NCBI GenBank assembly: GCA_044867425.1 | Contig: JBIOUX010000104.1 | Coordinates: forward strand, 211 to 64,210 | DNA from: Acidimicrobiia bacterium | Lineage (GTDB): Bacteria > Actinomycetota > Acidimicrobiia > IMCC26256 > BP-133 | Length of the DNA stretch: 64,000 bases | Direction of reading: 5' to 3' | Part shown: positions 449-29,151 of the stretch, piece by piece | Layout of the letters: each line of letters begins with the position of its first letter | How positions within the stretch are numbered: the stretch's first letter is position 1 | Made by a program: the position numbers and the translations under genes | Notes under the pieces: generated by a model | Databases searched by the model: none | Told to the model about the DNA's origin: nothing | Seen by the model: the letters and a program-made list of their open reading frames with translations, nothing else

Positions 449-468
449 ATGAGTGGCGAAACACTCAT
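449..468. promoter_or_regulatory. Palindrome copy 1: ATGAGTG-GCGAAA-CACTCAT (putative operator)
   Basis: Perfect 7-bp inverted arms with a 6-nt spacer, upstream of the ParB-like regulator gene. The same arms recur at 17048-17067 and 33991-34010. Confidence 0.5.
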
Positions 469-584
469 GCGCTTCCCCCTCGTTGTGCGCCAGACTCGAT
501 CGTCGAGAGCCAGCCACACACGGACGCGGTGACGACCCCGCGTCTCTTCGGCGCGATGAACCGCAAGGGGAGGCCGACTTCGAT

Positions 585-4265: not shown

Positions 4266-5523
4266 CGCCGGCCGGGCCCGCAGGTCTGGACCAGGCCTGT
4301 GGGCGGACCCCGACTTCCTCAAGTTCTGGACCGCCCAAACCGTGTCGAGAGTCGGCACCCAGGTCACGTTTCTCGCCCTGCCGCTCACTGCCGTCGTGCT
4401 CCTGGACGCGAGTCCTGCCCAGGTCGGTTGGCTGGCCACCGTGGAGTATCTCCCGTACTTCTTCAGCCTGTGGGCGGGTGTCATAGTGGATCGCCTGCGT
4501 CGGCGCCGTCTGGTGGTGGGCGCGGACATCGGCCTCAGTCTCGTCATGGGCGTCGTCCCCGTAGCGGCGGCTACCCACCACCTCACCTATCCGGCCTTGC
4601 TCGGGGTCGCCTTCGCGGTGGGGTGCCTCACCATGCTCATCGAGATCGCCCAGACGAGCTATCTCCCCACCGTGGTCCGTCGGGTGCACCTGCTCGAGGC
4701 GAACACCAAACTGGAGGTCGGCCGGGTCGCCGCCCAGGTGTCCGGATCGGGACTGGGCGGGCTGCTGATCCAGGCGCTGTCGGCGCCCATCGCCATCGCC
4801 GCCGACAGCGCGTCCTACCTGGTGGCCGGATGCCTCATGGCTCGGATTGCCAAGCCTGAGGCACCGCCACCACGGCAGAGGACCCGCGTCCTGGCGGAAG
4901 TGCAGGAAGGCCTGAGGATGGCCCTGGCCCTGCCGCTGCGGCCCCTGCTCTTCCTGGCCGCGCTGGACAACCTCGTCCTTTCGGCGCAGGGCGCGGTGTT
5001 CGTTCTCTACATGGCTCGGGATCTGAGTTTTCCGCCCGCGTGGATCGGCTTCGTCACGGCCGCGAGCAGTATCGGCGGCGCCCTTCTCGGTCTCGCTGGG
5101 CGGCGCTCCCGTCTCGGCCAGGACCTTCACCGTCGCGTGTCGGGCGCGCAGTCCATGCTCGTCGCCAGCATCGCGATCATGCCCATCGCCACGCTCGTCT
5201 CACCGGTGACTTCGCTCGCACTGATGATCGCCTCCGGTTTCCTCTACGGTGCCGCCACCGTCGTCCTCTTCGTCACCATCGTGACCGCACGACAAGCGCT
5301 GACTCCCGACGCGCTCCTCGGCCGGGTCAGTGCCGCGTGGCGCTTCCTGGCGGTGACGGCGACGCCCGCCGGTGCCTTTCTGGGCGGGACCCTGGGACAG
5401 GCACTGGGACTCCCGACGACGTTCTTCCTGTGCGCCACCGGCTTGTGCGTTCCCCTCGTCCTCATCGCCCGCGCTGAGAGCCGGGCCGGGCTTGCGCTAG
5501 CGGCGGGCCAGAAACACGGATGA
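4258..5523 (+). CDS. MFS transporter (EntS/MFS_3-like exporter)
   Basis: Multi-TM hydrophobic profile. N-terminus WADPDFLKFWTAQTVSRVGTQ and loop DRLRRRRL. Overlaps the upstream stop codon. Confidence 0.85.
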   Translation: MLDAGRARRSGPGLWADPDFLKFWTAQTVSRVGTQVTFLALPLTAVVLLDASPAQVGWLATVEYLPYFFSLWAGVIVDRLRRRRLVVGADIGLSLVMGVVPVAAATHHLTYPALLGVAFAVGCLTMLIEIAQTSYLPTVVRRVHLLEANTKLEVGRVAAQVSGSGLGGLLIQALSAPIAIAADSASYLVAGCLMARIAKPEAPPPRQRTRVLAEVQEGLRMALALPLRPLLFLAALDNLVLSAQGAVFVLYMARDLSFPPAWIGFVTAASSIGGALLGLAGRRSRLGQDLHRRVSGAQSMLVASIAIMPIATLVSPVTSLALMIASGFLYGAATVVLFVTIVTARQALTPDALLGRVSAAWRFLAVTATPAGAFLGGTLGQALGLPTTFFLCATGLCVPLVLIARAESRAGLALAAGQKHG

Positions 5524-6288
5524 CCGCTTGCTGGCCAGGAACGGGCCGTCGAAGTGGGGCAGTCGGGAGGCCAGCTCCGCGCCATCCATTCTCCTGGCCA
5601 GGTGGTCCCGCACCGCCGCCCAGTCGGCAAAGGTGACCTGTCCGTTGGCGTCGAGCCGGTCCACCTCCCGGAAATGGCGCTTCAGCCGGCGCCGGCCGTT
5701 CTCGCGGCTGAAGGCGATGATGATGGCGGGTGTCCCGAACAGCAGCTCCCACAGTTCACTGAGGTTGCGCTCACTGAGTGTCGCGGCGACAAGCAAGCCC
5801 CCGGGTCGCAGGACCCGAGCGGCCTCACGGATCCCGGCCGCGACGTTCTCGAGATAGTGCAACACCCAATTCGCAATAAGACAGTCGACGGTTCCTGAGG
5901 CGAAAGGCAACCGGTTGAGGTCGGCAATTACGGTCCCGAGACCCCGATCGGCTGCCATCTTTGCCATGCGCGGTGAGAGGTCCGCGGCCAGGACTTTTCC
6001 CTTGATTGCGGTTTGCAGCCGAGCGGCGAAGACCGCCGTACCGCAGCCGACGTCCACGATCGTGCCCGGATGAAACTGAGCGACTCTTTCGAACGCAAGC
6101 TCCAAGGCGTCAGTACCCGTTCCCGTGTCGTACAACGCCGACTGCGCCTCGTAGTCGCTCTCCTGTGCGAACGCCTCGAGCACACGTTGGCGATGGCTAA
6201 CAGTCTTCGCGGAATGATCACGGCGACGATCGCAACCTGATTGACCTATCACCGCACAACTATTAACGTCGCTTTCAGCGTACTTCAA
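5497..6288 (-). CDS. Class I SAM-dependent methyltransferase
   Basis: SAM motif I IVDVGCGTAVFAARL. Converges on the MFS gene with a 27-nt overlap. Start codon uncertain. Confidence 0.8.
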   Translation of the reverse strand: MKYAESDVNSCAVIGQSGCDRRRDHSAKTVSHRQRVLEAFAQESDYEAQSALYDTGTGTDALELAFERVAQFHPGTIVDVGCGTAVFAARLQTAIKGKVLAADLSPRMAKMAADRGLGTVIADLNRLPFASGTVDCLIANWVLHYLENVAAGIREAARVLRPGGLLVAATLSERNLSELWELLFGTPAIIIAFSRENGRRRLKRHFREVDRLDANGQVTFADWAAVRDHLARRMDGAELASRLPHFDGPFLASKRSSVFLARR

Positions 6289-6342
6289 GCCTGGCTGTCC
6301 AGAATTTCATCGCGCCGGGAGAGGCGCCGCGGAGGAGAGCCT

Positions 6343-7512
6343 ATGCCGGACAGCACGGAAGCTTTCGTCCCCTATGAGCATGAGCGTGTCGAGCGGGAAT
6401 CGACCAACTGGTGGGATCTGCTCCCCATCTCGATCAACGACACCTACGGCGACCCGTTCATCCCCGAACAGGTCGAGAATACGGTCATGAAGATCACCCG
6501 GCTCATGGACCATCGATTTCCCCTGGCAATCTTCACCAAGGCTGGGTATGACCGTGCCGTCCTACAAAAATTGCGGGCGATTGCTGCCAATGACCGTGTG
6601 GTGGTCTTCTACAGCCTCACCGGCTTGAACGAGGGCGGTATTTCTTTCGGAGAACGCTTGGCGATGATCGATGGGCTCCGTGACATCTGGGACAACGTCG
6701 TCGTCTTCACCCGTCCAATCATCCGGAACCGGAACGACGATCCTGCACTCCTTCAACGCCTCGTGGATGTTGCCGCCGCCGGAACCAAACTCCTCGTGAT
6801 GGGCGGCCTGCACGACCGCTACAAGAACAAGTTGTTGGAATTTGCTATCGAAGACCTGCTCACGGAAATGTGCGACCAACAAGGCGTGAAGTGCTTCCAC
6901 AAGACCGCCTGTTGCGCCGCTTATCTCCATCGCCGGTCCTGCTGGGTACACGACATGACTGGCCCTCACAACCTTGAGGTGGCGCGCCAGCTCGGCTATC
7001 GGTTCGCGATCATCGAGAATCGCGTGGTCCTGGACCGGGCCAGCACGGGTGACCTGAACTTCCTGCGCATGCTGGTACGGGCCGGCGTGTACGCCGCCCG
7101 TCTCATCAGCAACTACAACCTGCTTACGATCCCGAGCGGCGAGCAGAAATACGAAGCCACTTCGAGTTGGTACGCCTGGTCGGAGAACATCGATACCTGC
7201 CTCGATTGTGACTATTGCATCATCAAGCAGATTGAATATCTGAAGAGGATGCGGGTGAAGATCGGCACGCATCCGTCAGAAATGGTCGAGATCGTCCGCG
7301 CCCTGAATCCGGGAGTCGACTTTTCGACGTTCCAGATGACCAAGCTGCGCGAGGAACGGTCGGAGGCGCATACTTACGACGACGTCCGGGTGGTGAAACC
7401 GTGCTTCGTGAGGCGTTATCCACCCCCACCTCTTGCTGCCATCTCGGGGACGGCCCCGGACCGCGTGGTCGCGCCACTTCGGATCGCATGTACTCCGAGC
7501 TCCGCACGCTGA
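6343..7512 (+). CDS. Cys-rich protein with a radical-SAM/SplB-like barrel signature but no N-terminal CxxxCxxC; C-terminal CLDCDYC
   Basis: ATG 6343 follows GGAGGAG. ISINDTYGDPFIPEQ...LAIFTKAGYDRAVL...FTRPIIRNRNDDP resembles the post-cluster part of COG1533-type radical SAM barrels. Cys-rich tail: CDQQGVKCFHKTACCAAYLHRRSC and CLDCDYC. G+C is visibly lower than in neighbouring genes. Confidence 0.6.
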   Translation: MPDSTEAFVPYEHERVERESTNWWDLLPISINDTYGDPFIPEQVENTVMKITRLMDHRFPLAIFTKAGYDRAVLQKLRAIAANDRVVVFYSLTGLNEGGISFGERLAMIDGLRDIWDNVVVFTRPIIRNRNDDPALLQRLVDVAAAGTKLLVMGGLHDRYKNKLLEFAIEDLLTEMCDQQGVKCFHKTACCAAYLHRRSCWVHDMTGPHNLEVARQLGYRFAIIENRVVLDRASTGDLNFLRMLVRAGVYAARLISNYNLLTIPSGEQKYEATSSWYAWSENIDTCLDCDYCIIKQIEYLKRMRVKIGTHPSEMVEIVRALNPGVDFSTFQMTKLREERSEAHTYDDVRVVKPCFVRRYPPPPLAAISGTAPDRVVAPLRIACTPSSAR

Positions 7513-8231
7513 GCGCCGGCACGGCGTCCTTCTACTGCATGGTGGAACGGCCACGAAAGGGAGCGGCGGCTCCCGATGGGGTCTTCCTTCTGCACGGCCT
7601 GGGCGAGGACCGTAGCGGCCACAACTACCTGTGGTCGCAGATGGCCCGGCGTCTGGTGTCGGACGGTTCCACCGTCTACCGGTGCGACCTGGCCGGCATG
7701 GGGGACTCCCTACTGCCTCTCGACCTCGATCTCTGGGCCAGGCAGCTCGACGCCTTGGGAGGTCTTGGACAAGACCATGATCGCATCCACGTCGTGGCCC
7801 GGGGGGCGGCCCGCTGCATCGTGCCCGACAACTGGCGACGGGGGACTGTGGTGGCCCTGCGGCCGTGCGGCCCCCGGGATGTCGACACGGGGCTCGGAAG
7901 CGCACTGGGGCGGGCCGTCTGTGGCCAGGTGAGGCCCGTCCCGGGCGATGTCGGACCGGAGGAGAGCCGGTTCTGGACTGCGCTGGGAACCGAGGTGCGC
8001 GCCATCGGAGGCGCCAGTGTCAGTGCCTTTTTCCTCACTCAGGTCGCCTCCCGCACGACCCCGTGTCCTTCTTGCTGGACGGTCCTCGCCGCCGTTCACG
8101 ATGCCGATCGTGTCCCGGAGGAGGCCATCCTGCTCGACACCCCGAGCTCGCTGTTCCTGCTCGAGGCGGACCGCGGACAGGTCCTGGAGCTGGTCACCCG
8201 AGCGCTGGCCGGGACTGGTCACCGGCGTTGA
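7488..8231 (+). CDS. Alpha/beta-hydrolase-fold protein with a degenerate nucleophile elbow
   Basis: Track ORF 7401..8231. GVFLLHGLGEDRSGH and CDLAGMGDS are alpha/beta-fold-like. The elbow reads VVARGAA instead of GxSxG. Start is uncertain (ATG 7488 or 7539). Confidence 0.5.
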   Translation: MYSELRTLSAGTASFYCMVERPRKGAAAPDGVFLLHGLGEDRSGHNYLWSQMARRLVSDGSTVYRCDLAGMGDSLLPLDLDLWARQLDALGGLGQDHDRIHVVARGAARCIVPDNWRRGTVVALRPCGPRDVDTGLGSALGRAVCGQVRPVPGDVGPEESRFWTALGTEVRAIGGASVSAFFLTQVASRTTPCPSCWTVLAAVHDADRVPEEAILLDTPSSLFLLEADRGQVLELVTRALAGTGHRR

Positions 8232-8866
8232 GTTCGAGGGCGCTGTTCGTCGCCGTGGAAGGCATCGACGGCTCAGGGAAGTCGACGATGGCCGCGGCCC
8301 TCGCCCGGACCCTGGAGACCCGAGGGCGCGCCGTCAGCGTGCTCCGTCCGCTGGCCCCCGAGGGGCGTGTGGTCGACGATGTGCGCTTCGTCCACCAGGC
8401 CCTGGGCGGTCGGAACTCGGAATTGGACCGTCTCAAGGACCGATTCCTCTCCACCTACTTCAGCTATCGACTGGCATTGTCGGCCGTGCGGGAGATCGTT
8501 CCCCGGCTGGAGGCCGGGGTCTCGGTCGTTGCCGACCGGTATCTCGGATCCCATGTGGTGAACCAGGCGGTGTTCGGCGAAGACCTCCAACCCGTCCGGG
8601 GCCTGCTGGAACGCCTCCCTCCTCCGGACGTGACCTTGTTCCTCCAGGTCCCGGTTCCCGTCGCCCTGGAGCGGCTGCAACCTCGACCTCGGCGGGGCGT
8701 GGGCGATCATCGCCGCTTCCTTGAAGCCGCCGACGCCGGCTTCCAGGACCAGGCCATCCTTCATGGTTGGGTCGTGCTGGACGGGACGCGAGCCCCCGAA
8801 GTGGTCGCCGTCGACGCCGCCGACCAGATGGAACGCGCCTTGGGAGCCGCGGAGATGCGGCGGTGA
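8228..8866 (+). CDS. Thymidylate kinase-like P-loop kinase
   Basis: FVAVEGIDGSGKST P-loop and ADRYLGSHVVNQ (DRY..S..YQ-like). A TTG start forms a TTGA overlap with the upstream stop. In frame with track ORF 7865..8866. Confidence 0.7.
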   Translation: MSSRALFVAVEGIDGSGKSTMAAALARTLETRGRAVSVLRPLAPEGRVVDDVRFVHQALGGRNSELDRLKDRFLSTYFSYRLALSAVREIVPRLEAGVSVVADRYLGSHVVNQAVFGEDLQPVRGLLERLPPPDVTLFLQVPVPVALERLQPRPRRGVGDHRRFLEAADAGFQDQAILHGWVVLDGTRAPEVVAVDAADQMERALGAAEMRR

Positions 8867-10566
8867 TCAGTTTCGACGGCCCCAGTGGCGTCGGCAAGAC
8901 AGGCGTGGCGGCCGCGGTGGCATGCCGCCTCGGTCTCCCCTTCGTCAGTGTCGGCGACGTCTACCGCACCCTGGCCATCGCGGTGGCCGATGGGATGGCA
9001 CTCACGGCCGCGACCGAGCGGCTGGTCGTCCGACCGGCCGCACCCGGGCGGCCGCCGGTGGTCACCCTCGACGGCCGGGCCCTGGGCGCGCGGCTGTTGG
9101 TCGACGATGCCATCGAAGGTGCGGCGGCACGTCTCGCCCGACAGCCGGGCGTCTGGGAAGCAGTCAGCCGGATCGTCCGCTCCGCTACCGACGGACAGCA
9201 GGCCGTCGTCGAGGGAAGAACCTCGTACGAGCTGGCTGACGGCAACGGACTCCGGTTCTTCCTGTGGGCCGACCCAGCCGAGAGGGCGCGCCGGCTCCAT
9301 GCCGAGAAGGCACGACACGGTTGGCAGGGCAGCCTCGATGAGATCGGGCGAGGAACCAGGTGGCGTGACGGCGAGGACGCGCGCCGGGTCGACCACCCGT
9401 TGCGCCTGCGGTCCGGCATGATCTTCTGGGATTCGAGCGGGAGCCCGTCCCAAGAGGAGACCGTCGACGGTGTCTGCCGGCTGATCAGGCACCACCAGGG
9501 AACGTCACCGCTCGGGGCGTCGGTCGTCATTCCCGCCGGCCGGCGCCGACACCATGCCGTCCTGGCGCTCGAAGCCCTGTCCAGGCAAGATCTCGACCCC
9601 TCCCGGTACGAGGTCCTGGTGGTCCGGGATAGCGGGGCGGACAACCACATCTGCCTGCCGCCGGGGCTGAACGGGCATGTGCTCGAGACCCGCCGGCGGG
9701 GCGCGGCGGCGGCCCGGAACCTCGGCCTCGCACAGGTGCAGGGCGACGTCGTGATCTTCCTGGATGGCGACATGCTGGTCGGGCCTGACTTCCTGCGCCG
9801 CCACCTCGAGCTGCACGGCCGGCGTCATGACCTGGTGCTGTCCGGCGCCCGCCGCCACCTCCCGCCGGGACCCGAGGTACCCACCTCCGGCTCCCGCCGC
9901 GATTCGCGCGAGGCGATTCTCGACCGGTACTCGTACAACCTCGGCTGCCTGGCCAAGCCCTGGAGCCTCGCCTACAGCTGCAACCTCAGCCTGTGGACGA
10001 GACGCGCCCGGGACGCGGGTGGCTTCGACGAGCACTTCGTGACCTGGGGTCTCGAGGACCTCGAATTCGCCTACCGCTGTCATCAACAGGGAGCCCGCTT
10101 CGGGTACAGCCGGAGGGCGGGGGGGCACCATCTCTGGCACGACCGGTCGCTCACCCCGGAGCGATACAACGATTGGTCCACCAGCCTGCGGTGGTTCGTC
10201 GAACGCCATCCGACGGCCGACGTGAACGACCTCGGCCTGCTGGCGCCGGCATTCGACCCCGCCCGCCGGGGAGATTTTTTTGCCGCCTATGAACGCTTCA
10301 ATGGCGTCCGGCGAAGCCGTGGCCCTCAGCGCGTCATCGAGACCGGCGCGTTCGACGACGCGCTGGAGGTGGCTCAGCGGGCGGTGGCGGAGGACGACGG
10401 CGGGGACGTCATCGTCGTGGACGGCCTCGACGACGAAGAGACCTGCCTCCTCATGGAAGCGGCGACGCCGGGACGACACGTCCAGGCCTACCAACGCTCG
10501 GACTGGGAGCGGCTGACGGCCACGGAGCAGGCCCCCCCGGTGCTCCTCGAGGGCGCCCCCCGGTGA
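8863..10566 (+). CDS. Fusion protein: cytidylate kinase-like N-domain plus family-2 glycosyltransferase
   Basis: N-terminus ISFDGPSGVGKTGVAAAVACRLGLPFVSVGDVYR is Cmk-like. Middle part VVIPAGRRRHH...VLVVRDSGAD...NLGLAQVQGDVVIFLDGDMLV is GT2 with a DxD-type motif. GTGA overlap at 8863. Confidence 0.75.
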   Translation: MISFDGPSGVGKTGVAAAVACRLGLPFVSVGDVYRTLAIAVADGMALTAATERLVVRPAAPGRPPVVTLDGRALGARLLVDDAIEGAAARLARQPGVWEAVSRIVRSATDGQQAVVEGRTSYELADGNGLRFFLWADPAERARRLHAEKARHGWQGSLDEIGRGTRWRDGEDARRVDHPLRLRSGMIFWDSSGSPSQEETVDGVCRLIRHHQGTSPLGASVVIPAGRRRHHAVLALEALSRQDLDPSRYEVLVVRDSGADNHICLPPGLNGHVLETRRRGAAAARNLGLAQVQGDVVIFLDGDMLVGPDFLRRHLELHGRRHDLVLSGARRHLPPGPEVPTSGSRRDSREAILDRYSYNLGCLAKPWSLAYSCNLSLWTRRARDAGGFDEHFVTWGLEDLEFAYRCHQQGARFGYSRRAGGHHLWHDRSLTPERYNDWSTSLRWFVERHPTADVNDLGLLAPAFDPARRGDFFAAYERFNGVRRSRGPQRVIETGAFDDALEVAQRAVAEDDGGDVIVVDGLDDEETCLLMEAATPGRHVQAYQRSDWERLTATEQAPPVLLEGAPR

Positions 10567-11336
10567 CCACTCCGACGCCGGCGAACGATCCGGGGCGTCC
10601 TGTACGCCGCGAGGAACTCGTCGCCGTGGGCGACGGTCACGTCCTCACGGTGACCGACTTTCCCGCCCGTGAGCCAGCCGGCACCGTCGTCCTGTGTCAT
10701 GGCCTCACCGGAGATCGAGTTGGCCCCCAGCGGCTGCTCACCGTACTGGCGGAGGAGATCGCTTTGGGCGGCTTCCTCTGTCTGCGCTTCGATTTTCGCG
10801 GCTCGGGAGACTCCAGCGGGGACTTCTCGGGCTCGACCTTCACGTCGATGCGTGAGGATGTGGAGCTCGTCACCAGCTGGGGACGGGAGCGGTACGGGCG
10901 GCACCCCCTGGGGCTGGTCGGACTGTCGATCGGTGGGGTTCCGCTGGCGGTGGCCGCCCGCCGGTTCGACCACGTGGGCGCCGTCGTCCTGCTCTCGAGC
11001 GACGTGATCGAGGACGTCTACTTCCCCGATATCGGCCCCATGGTCGCCATCCGGGGCGGCGAGTTCCAGCTGCCGGCGAGCTTCTGGCGGGAACGGGAGC
11101 TTCTGCACCCGTTCAGCGACCTGCTGGCGACGGGTAGCCCGGTCAAGCTCTTCTACGGCGCCCAGGACGAGAAGCTGGCTCGAGAAGCACGCCGGTTCAG
11201 AGCGGCCGGATTCTCAGTCGAGCAGATCAGGGGCGTGGGGCACCTCTTCGAAAACATCGAGACCCGACACTATCTCGGCCGTCGTGTCGTCAGGTTCCTG
11301 CGCCGGCACCTGGTGCACCCGGCTCGGCGGCCATGA
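10563..11336 (+). CDS. Alpha/beta hydrolase
   Basis: VVLCHGLTGD, DFRGSGDS, and nucleophile elbow GLSIGG. GTGA overlap at 10563. Confidence 0.75.
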   Translation: MTTPTPANDPGRPVRREELVAVGDGHVLTVTDFPAREPAGTVVLCHGLTGDRVGPQRLLTVLAEEIALGGFLCLRFDFRGSGDSSGDFSGSTFTSMREDVELVTSWGRERYGRHPLGLVGLSIGGVPLAVAARRFDHVGAVVLLSSDVIEDVYFPDIGPMVAIRGGEFQLPASFWRERELLHPFSDLLATGSPVKLFYGAQDEKLAREARRFRAAGFSVEQIRGVGHLFENIETRHYLGRRVVRFLRRHLVHPARRP

Positions 11337-12502
11337 AGCGGACGAGCACCGAGTTCACACTCTGCCTGATCGCCAAGGACGAGGCCGAATACATCGACGA
11401 CTGCCTGCGCAGCCTGGCCGACGAGGCGTCGGCGATCGTCGTCGTCGACACAGGGTCCAGCGACGGAACCGTCGAGATCGCACGTCGGTACACCTCGCAC
11501 GTGTTCCTGCAACCGTTCGACGGCGACTTCAGCCGCGCTCGCAACCTCGCTCTCGGCTTCGTGCGCACGCCCTGGGTGGTCTTTCTCGATGCCGACGAGC
11601 GGTTCGACGGCAGGCAGGCAGCCAAGCTGCATCACCAGCTCATGGCGGTCCCCCCCGAGGTCATCGCCCTGCGGGTCATGCGCTACAACTTCTTCGCCAC
11701 GGGCGGCTGGTATTCAGGCAAGGAGATCAAGGTTTTCCGAAATCATCCCGCCCTCCGGTACCGGTGGGCCATCAACGAGAGCGTCCGTGACTCGGTGGAG
11801 GAGCTCGGAGGCGGTATCGGGGAGCTCCCGGTCGTGCTCAACCATTTCGGCCACTGTCGCCCGCGGCCGGTCCGTGACGCCAAAGCCCATCGGTACATGG
11901 CGTTGATCAGCGCCCGGCTCAAGGCCAATCCCGGTCACGGTCTCCTCGTCGGCTATCTGGCACTGATCCTGCGGACCCTGGGTCGGTTCGACGAGGCCAT
12001 GGTCCACGCCCGGCGAGCGATCTCGCTCGCCCCTGACGTCGCCCGGGTGCACCAGTTCCACGGGCACGTTCTGCGGTCGGTGGGAGCCGACCAGGAGGCG
12101 CGCGATGCCTACGCCCGCGCCGTCGACCTCGATCCCGACGACGCCGCCAACTGGAACATGCTGGGGGTGATGGATCTGACGCTCGGCCGCCGGTCCGACG
12201 CGGGCCACGACTTTGTCAATGCGCGGCGCGTCGACCCCATCGCCCTGCACGTCCTCGTCAATCAGGGTCTCTGCGAACAGGCGGCGGGACGATACGCAGC
12301 GGCGGCTCAGCTGTTCGAGGAGGTCGCCCGGGTCAACCCCGGCTTCCTGCACGATGAATGGCGGGGACGGGTGGAATGTGATCCGTTCCGCGAGTTCTAC
12401 TACGAGACCATCATGCAGTACGCCGGGCTCGGGTACCACCTCGGCTACTGCCGCTACCTGGCCGCCACGGCCACCGGGCCGAGCGTGGCCCTGAGGGCAT
12501 GA
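11333..12502 (+). CDS. GT2 glycosyltransferase with C-terminal TPR-like domain (SunS-type architecture)
   Basis: FTLCLIAKDEAEYIDDCL...VVVDTGSSDGTVEIA...DFSRARN...FLDADE, followed by helical repeats (LRTLGRFDEAMVHARRAISLAPD...). ATGA overlap at 11333. Confidence 0.75.
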   Translation: MKRTSTEFTLCLIAKDEAEYIDDCLRSLADEASAIVVVDTGSSDGTVEIARRYTSHVFLQPFDGDFSRARNLALGFVRTPWVVFLDADERFDGRQAAKLHHQLMAVPPEVIALRVMRYNFFATGGWYSGKEIKVFRNHPALRYRWAINESVRDSVEELGGGIGELPVVLNHFGHCRPRPVRDAKAHRYMALISARLKANPGHGLLVGYLALILRTLGRFDEAMVHARRAISLAPDVARVHQFHGHVLRSVGADQEARDAYARAVDLDPDDAANWNMLGVMDLTLGRRSDAGHDFVNARRVDPIALHVLVNQGLCEQAAGRYAAAAQLFEEVARVNPGFLHDEWRGRVECDPFREFYYETIMQYAGLGYHLGYCRYLAATATGPSVALRA

Positions 12503-13791
12503 GTCCCGATCGAGCGCGGGCCACGACCCTCGCCGCCGCATGGCGACGCCCGGGTCTCCTCTGCGACCTCATCGCCGATCTCGACCACTGGCCGCCGCCA
12601 CCTCGACCGCGGGCACCTCTGCCGGAATTCGACGACGCCGACTCGGAGAAGATCGCCCCCCACGTTCTGAGCCTCTCGAACGGGACGGCACGCGATCCGC
12701 GGCTCGATCGGCAGTGGGCGGCGATCACCAGGAAGCGCAAGGTGCTGGCCGGCGAGGCACTGGCCATTGCCGAAGCGGCCCGAGCTACGGCCAGCCGGAT
12801 CTTGTTCCTCCGAGGCTTCGCGATGGATCCGTACTACCCGGACGGGTACCTGCGACAGTTCAACGATCTCGACGTCGTAGCTGCCACCGAAGCAGACGGC
12901 GATCGGCTGCTGCGGCAGCTGCACCGGCGTGGCTACTTCCACTCCCGGCCCGCCGTCGCCATCCGTAGTCCCGGAGACCGCCGTCAGCCGCTCTGGATGC
13001 TGTTCTCCCTCAAGGCCCTTCACCCTGACCTTCCCGAACCCGTCTTCGTCGACCTGGTTCTCGGCGGGCCCGCCGCCACCTCAGTCTCCAGACTTCCGCT
13101 GCCGATCTCCCTCTTCGAGCATCCCGGCTGGGTCGCGGTCGACGGCGGTCGTCTGCCGGTACCCGACGCCCTGCACTGCCTGCTCGTCCTCATCACCGAG
13201 ATGTACGAACGCCGGCAGGTCACCGTCCGGGACCTTCTCGATTTCGATCGCGTCCTGGGCCGCATCAAGGCGCCGGAACAAGCCGCGACGGAGGTGGCCC
13301 GGCACCGGTTCGAGGCTCAGGTCGAACGGCTGGCGCAGGCAGCGACCCAGTTGGGAGCGCCGGAGTTGGCCCGGCGCCTGCGGCTGCTGGCACCACGTCA
13401 CAGCGGCGGTGCGCCGACCCGGTGGTTCGGCCCCCTCCTCCCCCACGCCATGAGGCACGCTTGGGCGGATTCACCTTCCACCGCCCTGCTGCGCCTTGCC
13501 GTGGCCACCGCCGGGCCCCTGCTGGACCGGGTCGAGGACCGGGTTCCGGGCGCCGCGCTCAACTTCTGGCGACATGTGCCACCCCGTCACGGTTATCGCC
13601 TCGGCCTTCCCATCTACCTCTTTCCACTCCTGACGACCGTGGAGCCCGCCGCCCCGGGAGAGGAACGGTTCCCAGACACGTACCGGCGGGAACGATTCAG
13701 CGCCTGCGGGCGCATGTTCCTCGCCCGGTGCCGGCCGGTGGTGGACGAGACCGAGCTCGGGCTGCTCGAGCCCGCCTTTGATGCGGGTTAG
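12499..13791 (+). CDS. Uncharacterised nucleotidyltransferase family protein (NTP_transf_5-like)
   Basis: LFLRGFAMDPYYPDGYLRQFNDLDVVAATEADGDRLLRQL matches the KG..Y....R...D.D.LV signature of this family. ATGA overlap at 12499. Confidence 0.6.
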   Translation: MSPDRARATTLAAAWRRPGLLCDLIADLDHWPPPPRPRAPLPEFDDADSEKIAPHVLSLSNGTARDPRLDRQWAAITRKRKVLAGEALAIAEAARATASRILFLRGFAMDPYYPDGYLRQFNDLDVVAATEADGDRLLRQLHRRGYFHSRPAVAIRSPGDRRQPLWMLFSLKALHPDLPEPVFVDLVLGGPAATSVSRLPLPISLFEHPGWVAVDGGRLPVPDALHCLLVLITEMYERRQVTVRDLLDFDRVLGRIKAPEQAATEVARHRFEAQVERLAQAATQLGAPELARRLRLLAPRHSGGAPTRWFGPLLPHAMRHAWADSPSTALLRLAVATAGPLLDRVEDRVPGAALNFWRHVPPRHGYRLGLPIYLFPLLTTVEPAAPGEERFPDTYRRERFSACGRMFLARCRPVVDETELGLLEPAFDAG

Positions 13792-14764
13792 GCCGCTCCA
13801 GCCGGGCGACGAGGGCGCCGTCGTCGAGATGGCCCTCGGGCAGCGCCTGGACAGGGTTCACCCACGTGAACAAGACCTGGCGGACGCCGCCTTCGTCCGG
13901 CGCCGCCTCCGCCGCCGGTTCGCTCCCGACGCGATCGGCAACGTCCAGAGCCTCGGCTGCTTCTCCGGCGGCCGCCTAGCGGCGTTCGTCGTCGAGGCAG
14001 ATGGGATTCATCCCCTGACCAGGGAGCGCGAACGGCACCTGGTGGACGCCGGTTGCGGGCCTGGCGATGCGGACGCCCTGGGTGAGCTCGTCGGGCGGGT
14101 CGTGTCAGCCGCCCGAACGGACGGGGTCGACGTCGTGCGGGCCGATGTGGGCGTCGGAGGCAAGCACGCTCACGACATGCTCCGGACGTTCACCAACAAG
14201 GGGTTCGTGGAGGAGTTGATGGTGGTGCGCAGGGCCGTCGGAACGGCGGGATCGACCGGAGGCGAGGTCATGCTCACACCGCCCGAACATCGACGCTACG
14301 CGCTCGACTGCCTCCACCTCGCGATCGCCAACGCACTGAAAGCGGCCGGGCGCCAGGTCGACGACCGGCTCATCAGGCGCTACGTGGGCCGCCGGTTCGG
14401 GAAGCTCACCACCGCCACCCAGTGGTCGTTCCTGGCCCTGGAAAGCGGCCACCCCCGGGCTCACGCGCTCGTGCAGTCGATGCGAGCCGACCTGCGACGC
14501 GCCCATGAGGCGTTCGTCGTCGACATCTTCGTGCCCCGCGTCTGGAGCGGCCGGGGCTGGTCGGCTCGGCTGCTCGGGCACATCGATCACTTCCTCCAGC
14601 AGAGAGGCATCGATCGGATGCAAGGTACTGTCTTGCAGATCAACGATGCTCACAGTGCCGACTTGCTGCGAACCCTGTCGGGCTCGGGATGGTGGGCCGA
14701 GATGCAGTCACTCGTCCTCACGCTGAGCGGACCGGGCCGTGACGGCCAGGGACGCCACAGGTGA
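13781..14764 (+). CDS. Tandem GNAT-like acetyltransferase
   Basis: Two acyl-CoA N-acyltransferase-like halves. The second carries VPRVWSGRGWSARLLGHIDHFL. Start is ATG 13781 or TTG 13778. Confidence 0.45.
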   Translation: MRVRPLQPGDEGAVVEMALGQRLDRVHPREQDLADAAFVRRRLRRRFAPDAIGNVQSLGCFSGGRLAAFVVEADGIHPLTRERERHLVDAGCGPGDADALGELVGRVVSAARTDGVDVVRADVGVGGKHAHDMLRTFTNKGFVEELMVVRRAVGTAGSTGGEVMLTPPEHRRYALDCLHLAIANALKAAGRQVDDRLIRRYVGRRFGKLTTATQWSFLALESGHPRAHALVQSMRADLRRAHEAFVVDIFVPRVWSGRGWSARLLGHIDHFLQQRGIDRMQGTVLQINDAHSADLLRTLSGSGWWAEMQSLVLTLSGPGRDGQGRHR

Positions 14765-15378
14765 CGAGACAACCTGGCCTCGAGGTCTACGAGGAGCACG
14801 GGGACTACCCGCCACTCGTGCGCGCCGCCGTCCGGTTGACGCGAGACCGCGGCTGCTCACAGGCCTGCCTCCCCGAGGTCGGCCGTCTGCTGCAGCTCAT
14901 GGCCGCCACCGTGACGACCGGGAACATCGCCGAGCTCGGCACCGCCTTCGGGGTGGGCACCGCCTGGTTGGCGAGCGGAATGAGCCCGAGCGTCCGGCTG
15001 GTCACGGTCGAGATCGAACCCGACCGGGCTGAGGCCGCGGCGGGGCTCTTCGCGCCGCTCGAGAACGTCGAGGTCCTCTGCGGTGACTGGACCCAGAGCC
15101 ACAAGGCGGCGCCGTACGCGCTGGTCTTCTCCGACGGCGGGCCGAAGAGGGAACCGGACGCCCCCGACCTGGTCGCACCTCTCCTCCAGCCGGGAGGCCT
15201 TGTCGTACTCGACGACTTCACCCCAGAGAGCGCCTGGACGGACGAGGAGCGTCAGCAGTGGTACCAGGACCCGACGCGGCTCATCTGGTCGGAGCATCCC
15301 GGCTATCTGTGCACCGAGGTGCAGCTCAGCCCCCGGTCCTCGGTACTGCTGGCCGTCCGCCGGCCCCGGTCGGGGTGA
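14761..15378 (+). CDS. Class I SAM-dependent O-methyltransferase (family 3-like)
   Basis: IAELGTAFGVGTAWLA is SAM motif I and GGLVVLDDF follows. GTGA overlap at 14761. Confidence 0.75.
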   Translation: MTRQPGLEVYEEHGDYPPLVRAAVRLTRDRGCSQACLPEVGRLLQLMAATVTTGNIAELGTAFGVGTAWLASGMSPSVRLVTVEIEPDRAEAAAGLFAPLENVEVLCGDWTQSHKAAPYALVFSDGGPKREPDAPDLVAPLLQPGGLVVLDDFTPESAWTDEERQQWYQDPTRLIWSEHPGYLCTEVQLSPRSSVLLAVRRPRSG

Positions 15379-16441
15379 CGACTGCGGAGGAAGGGTCTTC
15401 GCCGACGGCCTGGCGCAGCTGGGCCACCAGCTCCCCGGCCCGCTCCGCCTCACCAAGGTGGGGGAAACCGCCCAGGATGAAGAAGTCGACTCCGGCGTCC
15501 CGGTACTCCATGAGCCGCTCGACGACCTGTCCGGGGTGGCCGACGAGCGAGACGGCGACGCCGAATCGCACCGTTCCCACGCCGGCCCACAGGTTGGGGC
15601 CCACGGTGAGATCGGCCCGGCTGGTGGGCTGATGGTGGGCCAGGCGGCTGGGGGAGGACGACCGGCTCCGCTCCGCCACCAGCCGCACGATCTCGGGGTC
15701 GGACCTCGAGATGAGGGCGTCTGCGGCCGTCCACGCCTGCTCCTCGGTGTCCCGCACGATCACGTTCACCCGGAGGCCGATCTCGAGTCGCCTGCCTTCG
15801 GGTACGAGACGGCGCATGTGCTCGATCTCCTGGCGCACATCCTGGAGGGGGCCGCCGAAGACGAGGTAGGCGTCGGCATGGTCGGCCGCGATCTGTCGCG
15901 CCGGCTGGGAGCCACCGGAGAAGAACACGGGAATCCGGCTCTCGAGCTCGGGGTACAGCTCCGTCCCGGTGATGCGGTAGATGGAGCCGTCGTAGCTGGA
16001 CGGGATGTCCCCGTACCAGAGGTCCTCGACGATCGCCAACCACTCTCTCACCCGCTGGAACCGGGTCTCCGGATCGTCGAAGTTGCCGATCCAGGCGTCT
16101 TCGTCCCACCGGCCCGAGGTGACGTTGAGCTCGACCCGCCCGGGGAAAAGGCAGCTCAGGGTATGGGCCATCTTGGCCGCCTGCGCAGGGTGGTACTGAC
16201 TGGGCCGCACGGCGATGAGGGCATGGATCCGCTCGGTCCGGGCCAGCATGGCTGTCGCCGCCAGCCACGCCTCCAGCGAGTACTGGTAAAAGGCCGGCAC
16301 CAGGAGCCCGTCGAAGCCCGAGGCCTCCGCCGCTCGGCCGACCCGGGCCAGGTAGTCCGCGGTGGGCCAGACCCCTTCGGGCTCCGCCAACCCGAGGTAG
16401 GTCTCGTCGACACTGACCGGCAGCAACCAGTACAGCCTCAT
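15326..16441 (-). CDS. Luciferase-like (LLM) flavin-dependent monooxygenase
   Basis: Track ORF 15326..16525. The start was trimmed to MRLYWLLPVSVDETY (ATG 16441), which forms an ATGA overlap with the DUF402 stop. LLM-like ASGFDGLLVPAFY and LNVTSGRW. Confidence 0.75.
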   Translation of the reverse strand: MRLYWLLPVSVDETYLGLAEPEGVWPTADYLARVGRAAEASGFDGLLVPAFYQYSLEAWLAATAMLARTERIHALIAVRPSQYHPAQAAKMAHTLSCLFPGRVELNVTSGRWDEDAWIGNFDDPETRFQRVREWLAIVEDLWYGDIPSSYDGSIYRITGTELYPELESRIPVFFSGGSQPARQIAADHADAYLVFGGPLQDVRQEIEHMRRLVPEGRRLEIGLRVNVIVRDTEEQAWTAADALISRSDPEIVRLVAERSRSSSPSRLAHHQPTSRADLTVGPNLWAGVGTVRFGVAVSLVGHPGQVVERLMEYRDAGVDFFILGGFPHLGEAERAGELVAQLRQAVGEDPSSAVVTPTGAGGRPAVPRTGG

Positions 16442-16980
16442 CGGGTGGCCAGGACCTGTCCGTCCCCGACCTTCGGATAGCGGTGATCGGCAGAGAAGAA
16501 GGGGCAGATTTGCGGCGGGGGCCACGGCCCGTTGCGGTGGAGATAGGTGTCGACGAACGTCTCCGCCCGAGTCAGGACGTCACCTGCTTCTTCGATGGAG
16601 AATGCTCCGGACGACAGCCGCCGGGCGACATCATCCAGGTCGAGCATTCGGTACGTCGGCCCCATGCCTTCGACGATGACGTCAAGGGCCATGTCGCGCA
16701 CGTGGAGCAGGCCGGGCCGTCGCTCGGTGATCGTCACGACGTCGACGACCCATTCGTCTCGCCACTCGAAGGGTTCGAACACGAGCTGGATTCCGAGATC
16801 GACCAGCCAGAAGAAGCGACGTAACCCGTCCGGCCCCAGCCGGACGTCGTGCTCGTCACGGAACAGCACCGTCCCGCTGCGCCAAGCTGAACAGGGACGG
16901 AAGTCGCGATCACGCCACTGAACTCGGCACCGCTCCAGGGGGATCGTCGGCGAAGCCGCACCCCTCACCATCGGGTCCAT
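16438..16980 (-). CDS. DUF402 (FomD-like nucleotide-hydrolase fold) protein
   Basis: FFWLVDLGIQLVFEPFEWRDEWVVDVVTI...ALDVIVEGMGPTYRMLDLDD resembles DUF402. Translationally coupled to the downstream LLM gene. Confidence 0.55.
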   Translation of the reverse strand: MDPMVRGAASPTIPLERCRVQWRDRDFRPCSAWRSGTVLFRDEHDVRLGPDGLRRFFWLVDLGIQLVFEPFEWRDEWVVDVVTITERRPGLLHVRDMALDVIVEGMGPTYRMLDLDDVARRLSSGAFSIEEAGDVLTRAETFVDTYLHRNGPWPPPQICPFFSADHRYPKVGDGQVLATR

Positions 16981-23743: not shown

Positions 23744-23747
23744 CACG

Positions 23748-28013: not shown

Positions 28014-28032
28014 CCTGGCACGTCGACCCGAT

Positions 28033-29022: not shown

Positions 29023-29151
29023 CCGCACCTCCTGGTGCCGCCGGCACCGACAGCGACGGTACCGGAACAGAAGACGCCCGGGCTCCCGTCCCTCGGCGGG
29101 CGGCACTCGACCAAGGTGGTGCGGGACGTCAACGGGAGGCATTCTGGGCAC

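What the first reader, a model, noticed from the sequence alone, without database searches (positions are those of the whole stretch)
6241..7512. Compositionally foreign, Cys-rich gene with a radical-SAM-like barrel but without the N-terminal CxxxCxxC; CxxCxxC sits near the C-terminus
Hand counts of 60-nt lines inside the gene give 31/60 (6841-6900) and 26/60 (7201-7260) G+C, against 47/60 in the next operon gene (8281-8340). The protein begins only about 28 residues before ISINDTYGDPFIPEQ. From memory, that segment resembles the region of SplB/COG1533-type radical SAM enzymes that follows the Fe-S triad. The canonical triad is therefore missing. Cysteines instead cluster in the C-terminal half (CDQQGVKCFHKTACCAAYLHRRSC and CLDCDYC). 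This could be a non-canonical cluster placement, or a non-radical relative acquired horizontally into the island.
Basis: partly seen in the sequence, partly recalled or inferred. Interest (0 to 1): 0.6.

Follow-up and report, generated by a model that had tools for sequence, protein, structure and literature searches.

The report
Circularly permuted radical SAM enzyme gene
This gene encodes a radical SAM-type enzyme whose iron-sulfur-binding segment, normally at the start of the protein, has moved to the far end, a rearrangement I could not find described for this very large enzyme superfamily.

Summary
The gene (most likely 6343-7512, 389 aa) is the lowest-GC stretch of the window. It has no N-terminal CxxxCxxC in any frame and carries C286-x2-C289-x2-C292 near its C-terminus.

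It belongs to a conserved, unnamed family. All 76 aligned full-length members start at the strand that normally follows the cluster loop. Further relatives carry a canonical CX3CX2C exactly where this protein has CX2CX2C. Relatives in the normal gene order carry the same 'SW/SF...C..C.YC' element at the N-terminus.

Moving the C-terminal 58 residues to the front restores a continuous match. Against Pfam Radical_SAM the score rises from 14.4 to 23.7 bits. By hhalign against normal-order relatives the E-value improves from 1.3e-30 to 1.5e-37, with the cysteines in register.

AlphaFold models of two members are confident, and their best PDB matches are radical SAM enzymes.

So this is a circular permutation of a SplB/COG1533-like radical SAM core, probably still active. 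The GC dip is a family trait caused by amino-acid composition, not evidence of recent import.

The gene sits in a cross-phylum conserved cluster (glycosyltransferases, nucleotide-kinase-like proteins, hydrolases, a nucleotidyltransferase). Its product and the enzyme's substrate are unknown.

The parts
6343..7512 (+). Gene for the permuted radical SAM-like protein (389 aa). 6241-6342 is only the upstream extension of the maximal ORF.
   Evidence: ORF list. ATG at 6343 with ggaggag upstream. 100% match to an NCBI-called 389-aa protein. Homologues start about 20-25 residues before the first conserved strand.
6421..6897 (+). Barrel core, residues 27-185: six beta/alpha units corresponding to strands 2 onward of a radical SAM core.
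   Evidence: AlphaFold model, mean pLDDT 88, strands at 29-31, 61-65, 86-91, 119-122, 150-152 and 183-185. Pfam Radical_SAM profile 49-158 aligns here. hhalign to normal-order relatives.
6445..6456 (+). YGDP (residues 35-38), invariant. It corresponds to 'TDPF' of normal-order relatives, and I infer it is the equivalent of the GGE-type SAM-binding motif.
   Evidence: Invariant in 76 sequences. Aligned to TDPF. The role is inferred from general radical SAM knowledge.
6610..6633 (+). YSLTGLNE (residues 90-97), with Y90, S91, L92, T93 and E97 invariant; L95 is invariant in the 31-sequence alignment and over 90% conserved in the 76-sequence one. Putative SAM ribose-contact motif.
   Evidence: Aligned with 'SYSxLPxxIEP' of normal-order relatives. 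The role is inferred.
6712..6738 (+). RPIIRNRND (residues 124-132): P125, I126, I127, N131 and D132 are invariant and R124 is over 90% conserved. Shared as 'RPIIxGxND' with normal-order relatives.
6871..6951 (+). Cys/His-rich stretch, residues 177-203. C190, C200 and H203 are invariant and C177 nearly so. Probable auxiliary metal or Fe-S site.
   Evidence: 'KTSCAxxY' is shared with normal-order relatives. Not conserved in every distant permuted member.
6952..7158 (+). Alpha/beta insert domain (residues 204-272) with the invariant G236-D237-x-N239 'TGDLNF' motif. It precedes the relocated strand.
   Evidence: Model strands 221-256. Aligned to the C-terminal domain of normal-order relatives, which end shortly after the equivalent 'TxGDxxxIKWLTG'.
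7159..7242 (+). Relocated strand-loop-helix element (residues 273-300): TSSWYAWS strand, Cys loop, IIKQIEYL helix.
   Evidence: Model strand 277-281 and helix 293-296. The C-terminal 58 residues alone align to positions 4-52 of normal-order relatives, prob 89.9%, E=1.7e-6. Reversed control: E=0.42.
7198..7218 (+). C286-L-D-C289-D-Y291-C292: proposed three-Cys ligands of the SAM-binding [4Fe-4S] cluster.
   Evidence: C289, Y291 and C292 invariant; C286 over 90% conserved. Aligned on CX3CX2C of distant members and on GCxxGCxYC of normal-order relatives. No fourth Cys at +4.
7402..7404 (+). C354 in the 'VRVxKPC' motif, conserved only in the close family. Possible fourth ligand of the auxiliary site.
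   Evidence: Over 90% conserved. Absent from the roughly 310-aa distant members, which end earlier. The role is inferred.
7423..7512 (+). Non-conserved, low-confidence tail (residues 361-389) plus the stop codon. It overlaps the next gene's start at 7488.
   Evidence: pLDDT below 50 for residues 368-380. No conservation. Gene calls in L001.
5497..6183 (-). Divergent class I (UbiE-like) methyltransferase, a recurrent neighbour.
   Evidence: Pfam. Found near the gene in 10 other loci by tblastn and directly upstream of a distant member in L033.
7488..12502 (+). Conserved operon partners: alpha/beta-hydrolase-like protein (7488-8231), thymidylate-kinase-like protein (8288-8866), cytidylate-kinase-like/GT2 fusion (8863-10566), alpha/beta hydrolase (10626-11336) and GT2-TPR (11333-12502).
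   Evidence: Pfam and NCBIfam. Most or all of these genes are found in 17 of the 23 fetched loci, including Bacillus and Paenibacillus; three of those loci are copies of the same two places.
12499..16980 (.). Frequent accessory genes: NTP_transf_5 nucleotidyltransferase, a 327-aa unknown protein, a Methyltransf_24 protein, an SsuD-like flavin monooxygenase (-) and a DUF402-like protein (-).
   Evidence: The DUF402 hit is weak in my own scan (17.6 bits).

Best explanation
The gene encodes a circularly permuted member of the SplB/COG1533-like branch of the radical SAM superfamily. In ordinary members the first strand, the CX3CX2C loop and the first helix open the protein. Here that roughly 50-residue element follows the rest of the barrel and an alpha/beta insert domain. 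The protein therefore starts at the second strand (YGDP motif) and ends with 'TSSWYAWSENIDTCLDCDYC + helix'. I infer that C286, C289 and C292 bind a [4Fe-4S] cluster with one open iron, and that Y291 stacks on the adenine of SAM. I also infer that the reduced cluster cleaves SAM to a 5'-deoxyadenosyl radical, which abstracts a hydrogen from the substrate. C177, C190, C200, H203 and perhaps C354 would form a second, auxiliary metal or Fe-S site. Homology, permuted order, conservation and fold are shown here. Cluster binding, SAM cleavage and the substrate are inferred. The enzyme works in a conserved, patchily distributed cluster rich in glycosyltransferases, nucleotide-kinase-like proteins, nucleotidyltransferases and NUDIX/DUF402-type hydrolases. 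My best guess for the substrate, at low confidence (about 0.3), is a nucleotide-linked or sugar-phosphate intermediate rather than a peptide.
For: (1) 81 clusters of close homologues were found. All 76 aligned full-length members lack an N-terminal Cys motif. C289, Y291 and C292 are invariant and C286 is over 90% conserved. (2) A profile search of 1.84 billion representatives gave 184 hits. Distant full-length members of about 310 aa carry CX3CX2C at residues 270-290, aligned exactly on TCLDCDYC. (3) Relatives in normal order carry 'KSWLSxNxxxGCxxGCxYC' or 'KSFxxxGxSLxxCFDCxYC' at the N-terminus, then 'SINxxxTDPF', 'RPIIxGxND' and 'KTSCAxSY'. They end soon after the 'GDxxxxxWLTG' motif that in the target precedes the relocated segment. 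(4) De-permuted sequences match Pfam Radical_SAM in one continuous stretch from profile position 7-9. The target rises from 14.4 to 23.7 bits and P0017 from 28.6 to 35.3 bits, above the 29.5 cut-off. (5) hhalign of the de-permuted profile against normal-order relatives gives prob 99.95, E=1.5e-37, 285 columns, cysteines in register. The native order gives E=1.3e-30 and 230 columns, and lacks template positions 1-58. (6) The moved segment alone aligns with E=1.7e-6; the reversed control gives 0.42. (7) The target model has pLDDT 88 with alternating strand/helix units and a strand-loop-helix at 277-296. Its best PDB matches are SkfB, Cfr and TM_1862. (8) A second member's model (pLDDT 82) has radical SAM enzymes as all of its top 8 PDB matches: SuiB and PFL-AE. 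RlmN, LipA and viperin follow further down, among TIM-barrel proteins. (9) The protein is 59% identical between this actinobacterial window and Bacillus cereus, while its operon neighbours are 24-43% identical. That indicates strong purifying selection.
Against: There is no biochemical evidence. The spacing in this subfamily is CX2CX2C, not CX3CX2C. The native protein is below Pfam's cut-off (14.4 vs 29.5 bits) and far below the NCBIfam COG1533 cut-offs (20.9 vs 430). Profile searches against PDB sequences found no radical SAM enzyme in either order. Foldseek TM-scores are low (0.27-0.41), and TIM-barrel aldolases score nearly as well for the target model. I had no model coordinates, so I could not check that the three cysteines converge over the barrel next to the YGDP motif. 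The de-permutation gain was not seen for one member (P0100). The substrate guess rests on gene neighbourhood only. A PqqD gene and a CPBP-type gene in the Bacillus locus point instead to a peptide.
Confidence: 0.7

Rival explanations
1. It is a non-radical relative. The permuted protein keeps the barrel but no longer cleaves SAM. The C-terminal cysteines bind a structural zinc or a purely redox or structural Fe-S cluster, and the protein acts as a scaffold, a binding subunit or a non-radical Fe-S enzyme in the cluster.
For: CX2CX2C spacing rather than the canonical spacing. Sub-threshold Pfam score. In two loci a second, canonical radical SAM gene lies next to a family member, and in P0107/P0114 one is fused to it. 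That gene could supply the radical chemistry.
Against: The motif keeps the radical SAM hallmarks: exactly three cysteines, an invariant aromatic residue before the third, and no fourth Cys at +4. The putative SAM-contact motifs YGDP, YSLTGLxE and RPIIxxxND are largely invariant. Distant members keep CX3CX2C. CX2CX2C also occurs at the N-terminus of normal-order relatives, so it is a clade trait rather than decay. Most loci, including this window's cluster as annotated here, show no second radical SAM gene.
Confidence: 0.17
2. It is convergent recruitment, not permutation. The N-terminal cluster element was simply lost, and an unrelated C-terminal Cys motif was recruited later to hold a cluster, as in ThiC, where a C-terminal CX2CX4C supplies the cluster.
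For: There is precedent for non-canonical, C-terminal cluster motifs in SAM-radical enzymes (ThiC; from established knowledge). The spacing differs from canonical.
Against: The C-terminal segment is homologous to the canonical N-terminal element over 49 columns, including the flanking 'SW' strand and the following helix, at E=1.7e-6 against 0.42 for the reversed control. De-permutation gives one continuous alignment to Pfam and to normal-order relatives. Normal-order relatives end where the permuted ones continue into this element.
Confidence: 0.06
3. It is an annotation or assembly artefact, or a pseudogene: a truncated radical SAM gene whose real N-terminus was lost through a frameshift, a wrong start or a rearrangement in this genome.
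For: The maximal ORF begins at a TTG 102 nt upstream of the likely start, and the gene's GC content is atypical.
Against: No Cys motif in any upstream frame. The upstream DNA encodes a divergent methyltransferase. The same architecture is found in 76 aligned full-length homologues from Actinomycetota, Bacillota, Rhizobium and metagenomes. Identity to Bacillus is 59%.
Confidence: 0.01
4. The low GC marks a recently imported foreign gene inserted on its own into a native operon.
For: It is the lowest-GC segment of the 64-kb window. The whole cluster has a patchy, cross-phylum distribution.
Against: The same 3-11 point deficit is seen for this gene in all 13 high-GC actinobacterial loci, and there is none in the Bacillus and Paenibacillus loci. 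The deficit lies at codon positions 1 and 2, while GC3 is 0.75-0.90. The gene is syntenic with the same partners across phyla. Transfer of the whole cluster is likely; solo import of this gene is not.
Confidence: 0.08

Closest known systems
SplB / COG1533-type radical SAM proteins (spore photoproduct lyase; NCBIfam PA0069 NF033668 and Rv2578c NF038135 families)
   Same: These are the best, though weak, family hits for the target and its relatives. They share the 'DPF/DPY' motif after the second strand and an 'RPIIxGxND'-type motif. The normal-order relatives that bridge to the target hit these models with E of 1e-5 to 1e-8.
   Different: Scores are far below the family cut-offs (20.9 vs 430 bits). 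The order of elements is permuted. The spacing is CX2CX2C. There is an extra Cys/His site and an alpha/beta insert. The genomic context is glycosyltransferase/kinase rather than DNA repair.
ThiC (HMP-P synthase), a SAM-radical enzyme with a C-terminal CX2CX4C cluster motif
   Same: A [4Fe-4S]/SAM site supplied by cysteines near the C-terminus rather than after the first strand (from established knowledge).
   Different: ThiC's cluster domain is a separate C-terminal domain, not homologous to the canonical loop. Here the C-terminal element is homologous to the canonical N-terminal element. There is no sequence similarity to ThiC in the Pfam scan.
Circularly permuted SAM-dependent DNA/RNA methyltransferases
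   Same: A natural circular permutation of a SAM-using catalytic domain that keeps the fold and cofactor binding (PMC1282579).
   Different: They have a different fold (Rossmann-like) and different chemistry. They are a precedent for permutation only.
Viperin with its adjacent nucleotide kinase (CMPK2 in vertebrates; kinases next to prokaryotic viperins)
   Same: A radical SAM gene next to thymidylate/cytidylate-kinase-family genes. Viperin appears among the Foldseek matches of the second model. This is an analogy for a nucleotide substrate.
   Different: No specific sequence relationship. No PADLOC defence-family hit for the target. Here the cluster also encodes several glycosyltransferases, hydrolases and exporters.

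Membership tests
Radical SAM superfamily (Pfam PF04055) | Three-Cys motif CX3CX2C in the loop after the first strand, near the start of the domain | tested here: not met
   No such motif at the N-terminus in any frame. A three-Cys motif exists but is CX2CX2C at residues 286-292. Distant family members have CX3CX2C at that same C-terminal place.
Radical SAM superfamily (Pfam PF04055) | Aromatic residue before the third Cys and no fourth Cys ligand, giving an open iron for SAM | tested here: met
   Y291 is invariant in 76 sequences. Position 296 is Q, and there is no Cys at +3 to +5.
Radical SAM superfamily (Pfam PF04055) | Partial (beta/alpha)6 barrel fold | tested here: met
   Models with pLDDT 88 and 82 show alternating strand/helix units. 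The top Foldseek PDB matches are SkfB, Cfr, SuiB, PFL-AE and RlmN. TM-scores are low (0.27-0.41), as expected for a sequence-order-dependent aligner on a permuted protein.
Radical SAM superfamily (Pfam PF04055) | Score above Pfam's gathering threshold (29.5 bits) | tested here: not met
   Native target 14.4 bits; de-permuted target 23.7 bits. Homologue P0017 scores 28.6 bits native and 35.3 bits de-permuted.
Radical SAM superfamily (Pfam PF04055) | SAM-contact motifs (GGE-like, ribose motif, GxIxGxxE-like) | tested here: inconclusive
   Conserved YGDP, YSLTGLxE and RPIIxxxND align with the matching motifs of normal-order relatives and with Pfam positions 49-158. No coordinates or ligand modelling were available.
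Radical SAM superfamily (Pfam PF04055) | [4Fe-4S]-dependent reductive cleavage of SAM | not testable with these tools
   Needs anaerobic biochemistry.
COG1533 equivalogs (Rv2578c NF038135, PA0069 NF033668) | Full-length match above the curated cut-off | tested here: not met
   20.9 bits against a cut-off of 430, covering residues 85-194 only.
SPASM/twitch-type radical SAM enzymes (C-terminal auxiliary-cluster domain) | A canonical N-terminal radical SAM motif plus a C-terminal Cys-rich SPASM/twitch domain detectable by Pfam | tested here: not met
   No SPASM or Fer4 family appears in the Pfam scan at E up to 10, and no N-terminal motif. The C-terminal motif aligns with the canonical SAM-cluster loop instead.
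Circular permutant of a normal-order homologue | The two segments A-B of the normal-order protein are found as B-A, each homologous in register | tested here: met
   B: E=1.3e-30 over template 59-345. A: E=1.7e-6 over template 4-52. A+B re-joined: E=1.5e-37 over template 4-345. Normal-order proteins end where the permuted ones go on.

The most novel reading that the evidence does not exclude
This is a natural, catalytically active circular permutation of the radical SAM core. The [4Fe-4S]/SAM site is built from a C-terminal CX2CX2C element. The family is invisible to standard radical SAM annotation, and it acts on a nucleotide- or sugar-phosphate-linked intermediate in an uncharacterised, horizontally mobile glycosylation/phosphorylation cluster shared by actinomycetes, bacilli, rhizobia and gut Bacillota.
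Probability: 0.45. Interest if true: 0.78.

Novelty: new variant of a known kind. Interest (0 to 1): 0.68.

Why it matters
Radical SAM is one of the largest enzyme superfamilies. Its members are recognised, by people and by profile models alike, from the Cys motif that follows the first strand near the N-terminus.

A family in which that element has moved to the other end shows the core tolerates circular permutation. It also gives a natural test of how the cluster loop is positioned relative to the barrel.

The permutation explains why these proteins are annotated as 'hypothetical': the native order scores below the Pfam threshold. Mining pipelines that require an N-terminal CX3CX2C will miss them.

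The family also marks a conserved gene cluster, found across phyla, whose product is unknown.

Tried and rejected
- **Upstream start or frameshift.** All three forward frames from 5901 to 6520 were translated. No Cys motif was found.
- **PDB sequence searches.** A single-sequence search and profile searches with the native (A2, A3) and de-permuted (A4) alignments found no radical SAM hit. hmmsearch is not sensitive enough at this distance.
- **Model coordinates.** These are not exposed, so Cys-Cys distances and the position of the loop over the barrel could not be measured.
- **Precursor peptide.** An all-against-all comparison of 3215 ORFs of 25-130 aa from 21 loci recovered only out-of-frame shadows of the conserved genes. 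Small genes near the Rhizobium and gut-Bacillota loci look unrelated; one resembles an AgrD peptide.
- **Defence system.** The PADLOC scan of the target and nine neighbours gave only a weak kinase hit.
- **Phage association.** Two IMG/VR scans found no relatives. Only one phage-like contig (L031) carries a distant member.
- **Literature.** Searches combining 'radical SAM' with circular permutation, circularly permuted, permuted+CX3CX2C and CX2CX2C, and with the cluster's gene names, gave nothing relevant. Subscription-only papers are not covered.
- **Diverse alignment as a locus query.** It was rejected for lack of a conserved stretch, so the closer alignment was used instead.
Full report
**1. 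The observation**

The ORF list shows 6241-7512 (+), 423 aa from a TTG. The likely start is the ATG at 6343, preceded by ggaggag. It gives a 389-aa protein identical to an NCBI-called protein on another assembly of the same locus. All residue numbers below refer to this 389-aa protein.

The gene has GC 0.587, against a window mean of 0.708. It is the only region of the 64-kb window below 0.62.

Translating all three forward frames from 5901 to 6520 shows no CxxxCxxC. The upstream DNA encodes a divergent class I methyltransferase.

The protein has ten cysteines, at 177, 184, 190, 191, 200, 286, 289, 292, 354 and 383.

Single-sequence family scans give only a weak, partial radical SAM signal. 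Pfam Radical_SAM scores E=0.055 and covers profile positions 49-158 of 166, so everything except the Cys-motif end of the profile. NCBIfam Rv2578c (a COG1533 family) scores E=1.5e-4.

**2. A conserved family that never has the N-terminal motif**

The homology search returned 81 clusters, from actinomycetes, Bacillus, Sutcliffiella, Rhizobium and metagenomes. Most are unnamed or 'hypothetical'; a few are labelled 'radical SAM protein' or 'DNA repair photolyase'.

In alignments of 31 and 76 full-length members, every protein starts about 20-25 residues before 'P-x-S-x-N-D-T-Y-G-D-P'. Invariant residues include:
- N32, Y35, G36, D37 and P38
- Y90, S91, L92, T93 and E97
- P125, I126, I127, N131 and D132
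- C190, C200 and H203
- G236, D237 and N239
- C289, Y291 and C292

C177, C286 and C354 are over 90% conserved.

**3. The key result: the Cys element is the canonical one, relocated**

A profile search of 1.84 billion representative proteins found only 184 hits at E ≤ 0.001. A motif scan of these and the alignments show three kinds of relative.

- **Distant permuted members** (about 310 aa). They also start at the 'INxxxGDP' strand. They carry a textbook CX3CX2C (for example CEINCWYC or CKIDCWYC) at residues 270-290, aligned exactly on the target's TCLDCDYC. One member of the close family (P0080) has CAIACNYC there.
- **A second permuted group** (about 390 aa). Its C-terminus reads 'NTWxxWxRxLxxCFxCxYC', and it has an internal CPSCCTxC motif.
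- **Normal-order relatives.** They open with 'KSWLSxNxxxGCxxGCxYC' or 'KSFxxxGxSLxxCFDCxYC'. About 25-35 residues later comes 'IPVAVNxxYGDP', then 'RPIIxGxND', 'GGL' and 'KTSCAxSY'. They end shortly after the 'TxGDxxxIKWLTG' motif. In the target, the equivalent motif (TGDLNFLRML, residues 235-244) comes before the relocated element.

So the CX2CX2C spacing is a trait of this clade in both gene orders, not a sign of decay.

The normal-order relatives give weak hits to the PA0069, Rv2578c and 'mobile pair protein B' radical SAM models. This places the clade next to COG1533/SplB.

**4. Tests of the permutation**

I built de-permuted sequences: the C-terminal segment, from 20 residues before the first Cys to 30 residues after the third, placed in front of the N-terminal part.

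| Test | Native order | De-permuted |
|---|---|---|
| Pfam Radical_SAM, target | 14.4 bits, profile 49-158 | 23.7 bits, profile 9-158, one stretch |
| Pfam Radical_SAM, P0017 (B. cereus) | 28.6 bits | 35.3 bits (cut-off 29.5) |
| hhalign vs normal-order relatives | E=1.3e-30, 230 columns, template 59-345 | prob 99.95, E=1.5e-37, 285 columns, template 4-345, cysteines in register |

Two other members gained slightly in the Pfam test and one did not.

The moved 58-residue segment alone aligns to template positions 4-52 at prob 89.9%, E=1.7e-6. The reversed segment, as a control, gives E=0.42 over 6 columns.

Together these results meet the definition of a circular permutation: A-B has become B-A, and both parts are homologous in register.

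**5. Fold**

The AlphaFold model of the target, built from a 76-sequence alignment, has mean pLDDT 88.4 and pTM 0.88.
- It shows six strand/helix units between residues 29 and 185.
- An alpha/beta insert follows, at 186-276.
- Then come strand 277-281, the Cys loop and a helix from 293. This is the order strand 1, loop, helix 1 of a radical SAM core.

Foldseek against the PDB ranks SkfB first (E=5.6e-4, prob 1.00). Cfr and TM_1862 are also among the hits, mixed with TIM-barrel aldolases.

A second model, for the distant member P0103 (pLDDT 81.8), has only radical SAM enzymes among its top eight hits: SuiB and PFL-AE, at E=3e-5 to 7e-4. RlmN, LipA, viperin and GDGT-MAS follow, mixed with TIM-barrel proteins.

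TM-scores are low (0.27-0.41). That is expected when a sequence-order-dependent aligner meets a permuted chain.

**6. Mechanism proposed**

*Shown here:* homology to radical SAM enzymes, the permuted order, conservation of a three-Cys motif with an invariant aromatic residue and no fourth Cys, and conservation of the motifs that align with SAM-contact motifs.

*Inferred:*
- C286, C289 and C292 hold a [4Fe-4S] cluster whose free iron binds SAM.
- One-electron reduction yields the 5'-deoxyadenosyl radical, which abstracts a substrate hydrogen.
- C177, C190, C200, H203 and perhaps C354 form an auxiliary site. The 'TSCA' cysteine is shared with normal-order relatives, but it is missing in some distant permuted members.

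I put 0.7 on an active permuted radical SAM enzyme and about 0.17 on a non-radical derivative.

**7. Composition**

In all 13 high-GC actinobacterial loci fetched, the gene lies 3-11 GC points below its flanks. GC1 is about 0.55-0.63 and GC2 about 0.40-0.46, while GC3 is 0.76-0.90. Nocardia, at intermediate GC, shows the same offset with GC3 of 0.63. In the Bacillus and Paenibacillus loci there is essentially no offset, although two other low-GC loci (Lachnospiraceae and Prevotella) show about 7 points.

In this window the three values are 0.60, 0.42 and 0.75, against about 0.72, 0.52 and 0.82 for neighbouring genes.

The protein is also much better conserved than its neighbours: 59% identity to Bacillus, against 24-43% for them.

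The dip therefore reflects a constrained amino-acid composition rich in residues with AT-rich codons. The cluster as a whole is patchily distributed and probably mobile, but the evidence does not single this gene out as foreign.

**8. Genomic context and function**

tblastn of the window's proteins against the 23 fetched loci shows a recurring module. Three of those loci are copies of the same two places. The module consists of:
- the target
- a 247-aa alpha/beta-hydrolase-like protein
- a thymidylate-kinase-like protein
- a cytidylate-kinase-like/GT2 fusion
- an alpha/beta hydrolase
- a GT2-TPR protein

Most or all of these are found in 17 of the 23 loci (Actinomycetota, Bacillus, Paenibacillus and a Bacillota MAG). 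They often come with an NTP_transf_5 nucleotidyltransferase, an SsuD-like monooxygenase, a DUF402-like protein and methyltransferases.

More divergent members keep subsets of the same theme.

| Locus | Neighbours of the family member |
|---|---|
| L024 (gut conjugative element) | GT2-TPR overlapping the start codon; NUDIX-GT2 |
| L026 (Rhizobium) | PEP-utilizers_C, Tmk-like, GT2, NUDIX |
| L025 | NRPS cluster with PEP-utilizers_C, NTP_transf_5, Tmk-like and a second radical SAM gene |
| L030 | CoaE-like kinase and NUDIX |
| L028 | PEP-utilizers_C |
| L032 | canonical radical SAM, NAGPA phosphodiester glycosidase, GT2 |
| L033 | UbiE-like methyltransferase |
| L031 (phage-like contig) | PolB, DNA ligase, ThyX, dUTPase |

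The recurring partners handle nucleotides, phosphate and sugars, and the nearest characterised clade (SplB) acts on pyrimidines in DNA. I therefore favour a nucleotide-linked or sugar-phosphate substrate, at about 0.3.

A peptide substrate is suggested by PqqD and a CPBP-type gene in the Bacillus locus, and by M16 peptidases and an exporter in this window. I put that at about 0.2. No conserved precursor peptide was found.

No known defence family matched.

**9. Comparison with what is known, and novelty**

The protein works like a radical SAM enzyme. By homology it belongs to the superfamily, next to COG1533. It fails the literal defining feature (CX3CX2C after the first strand near the N-terminus) and the curated score thresholds.

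It is not a ThiC-like case. ThiC's C-terminal cluster domain is not homologous to the canonical loop, whereas here the C-terminal element is the canonical element.

Circular permutation is well known for Rossmann-fold methyltransferases (PMC1282579). My full-text searches found no report of it for the radical SAM core. The library lacks most subscription-journal papers, so a prior report cannot be excluded.

I rate this a new variant of a known kind.

**10. Verdict**

The finding is real, and its main interpretation is right and can be sharpened. The 'foreign composition' part is explained otherwise.

Interest is 0.68. This is a topological variant of a textbook enzyme core that current annotation misses, sitting in an uncharacterised conserved cluster. 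All evidence so far is computational.

Noticed in passing
window 453-1544 (+): A 363-aa protein with an HTH_23 hit. By eye, its N-terminal half looks like a ParB/sulfiredoxin-type domain ('VIDGVHRISAAR'), as in StrR-type pathway regulators. It may be the regulator of this cluster.
   Followed up: partly
window 1930-5523 (+): An M16 peptidase, an M16-like partner with no Pfam hit, and an MFS_3 exporter lie directly upstream of the operon. This is compatible with processing and export of a peptide-like or other secreted product.
   Followed up: partly
L031 7411-8349 (logan SRR13227005_3354): A distant permuted family member (P0103, CX3CX2C type) sits among DNA polymerase B, a DNA methylase, an NAD-dependent ligase, ThyX, dUTPase and an Acb3-like gene. 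The contig looks phage-like. Two IMG/VR scans found no further viral relatives.
   Followed up: partly
proteins P0107 (727 aa) and P0114 (493 aa); loci L032 8001-10281 and L025 8407-11119: Some family members are fused to, or sit next to, a second radical SAM domain or gene. In the fusions it carries a further CX3CX2C motif; in the loci it has a Pfam Radical_SAM hit. This suggests a two-enzyme radical SAM pair in part of the family.
   Followed up: no
proteins P0142, P0170, P0175, P0200, P0206, P0213, P0216: A normal-order group related to the family carries CX2CX2C ('CFDCxYC') instead of CX3CX2C at the N-terminus. This non-canonical spacing appears to be unannotated as well.
   Followed up: partly
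L002 8656-9713 (-), Bacillus cereus: A PqqD-like gene is coupled to a 269-aa protein with a Pol-beta-type nucleotidyltransferase signature (GS...SDIDVFV). The pair runs divergently from the family member, with a CPBP (Rce1-like) gene and an MFS gene beside them. This looks like bacteriocin/RiPP-type organisation.
   Followed up: partly
window 23730-28052: ORFs of more than 1400 aa are open on both strands. The minus-strand one has no Pfam hit. The adjacent 28033-30306 (-) ORF has a Beta-lactamase2 domain.
   Followed up: no
L024 7994-8251 (+): An 85-aa gene next to AgrB, a histidine kinase and a LytTR regulator ends in '...SRCMYCLHQPKQP'. It looks like an AgrD-type autoinducing-peptide precursor, so the GT2-TPR/radical SAM pair on this gut conjugative element may be under quorum-sensing control.
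   Followed up: no
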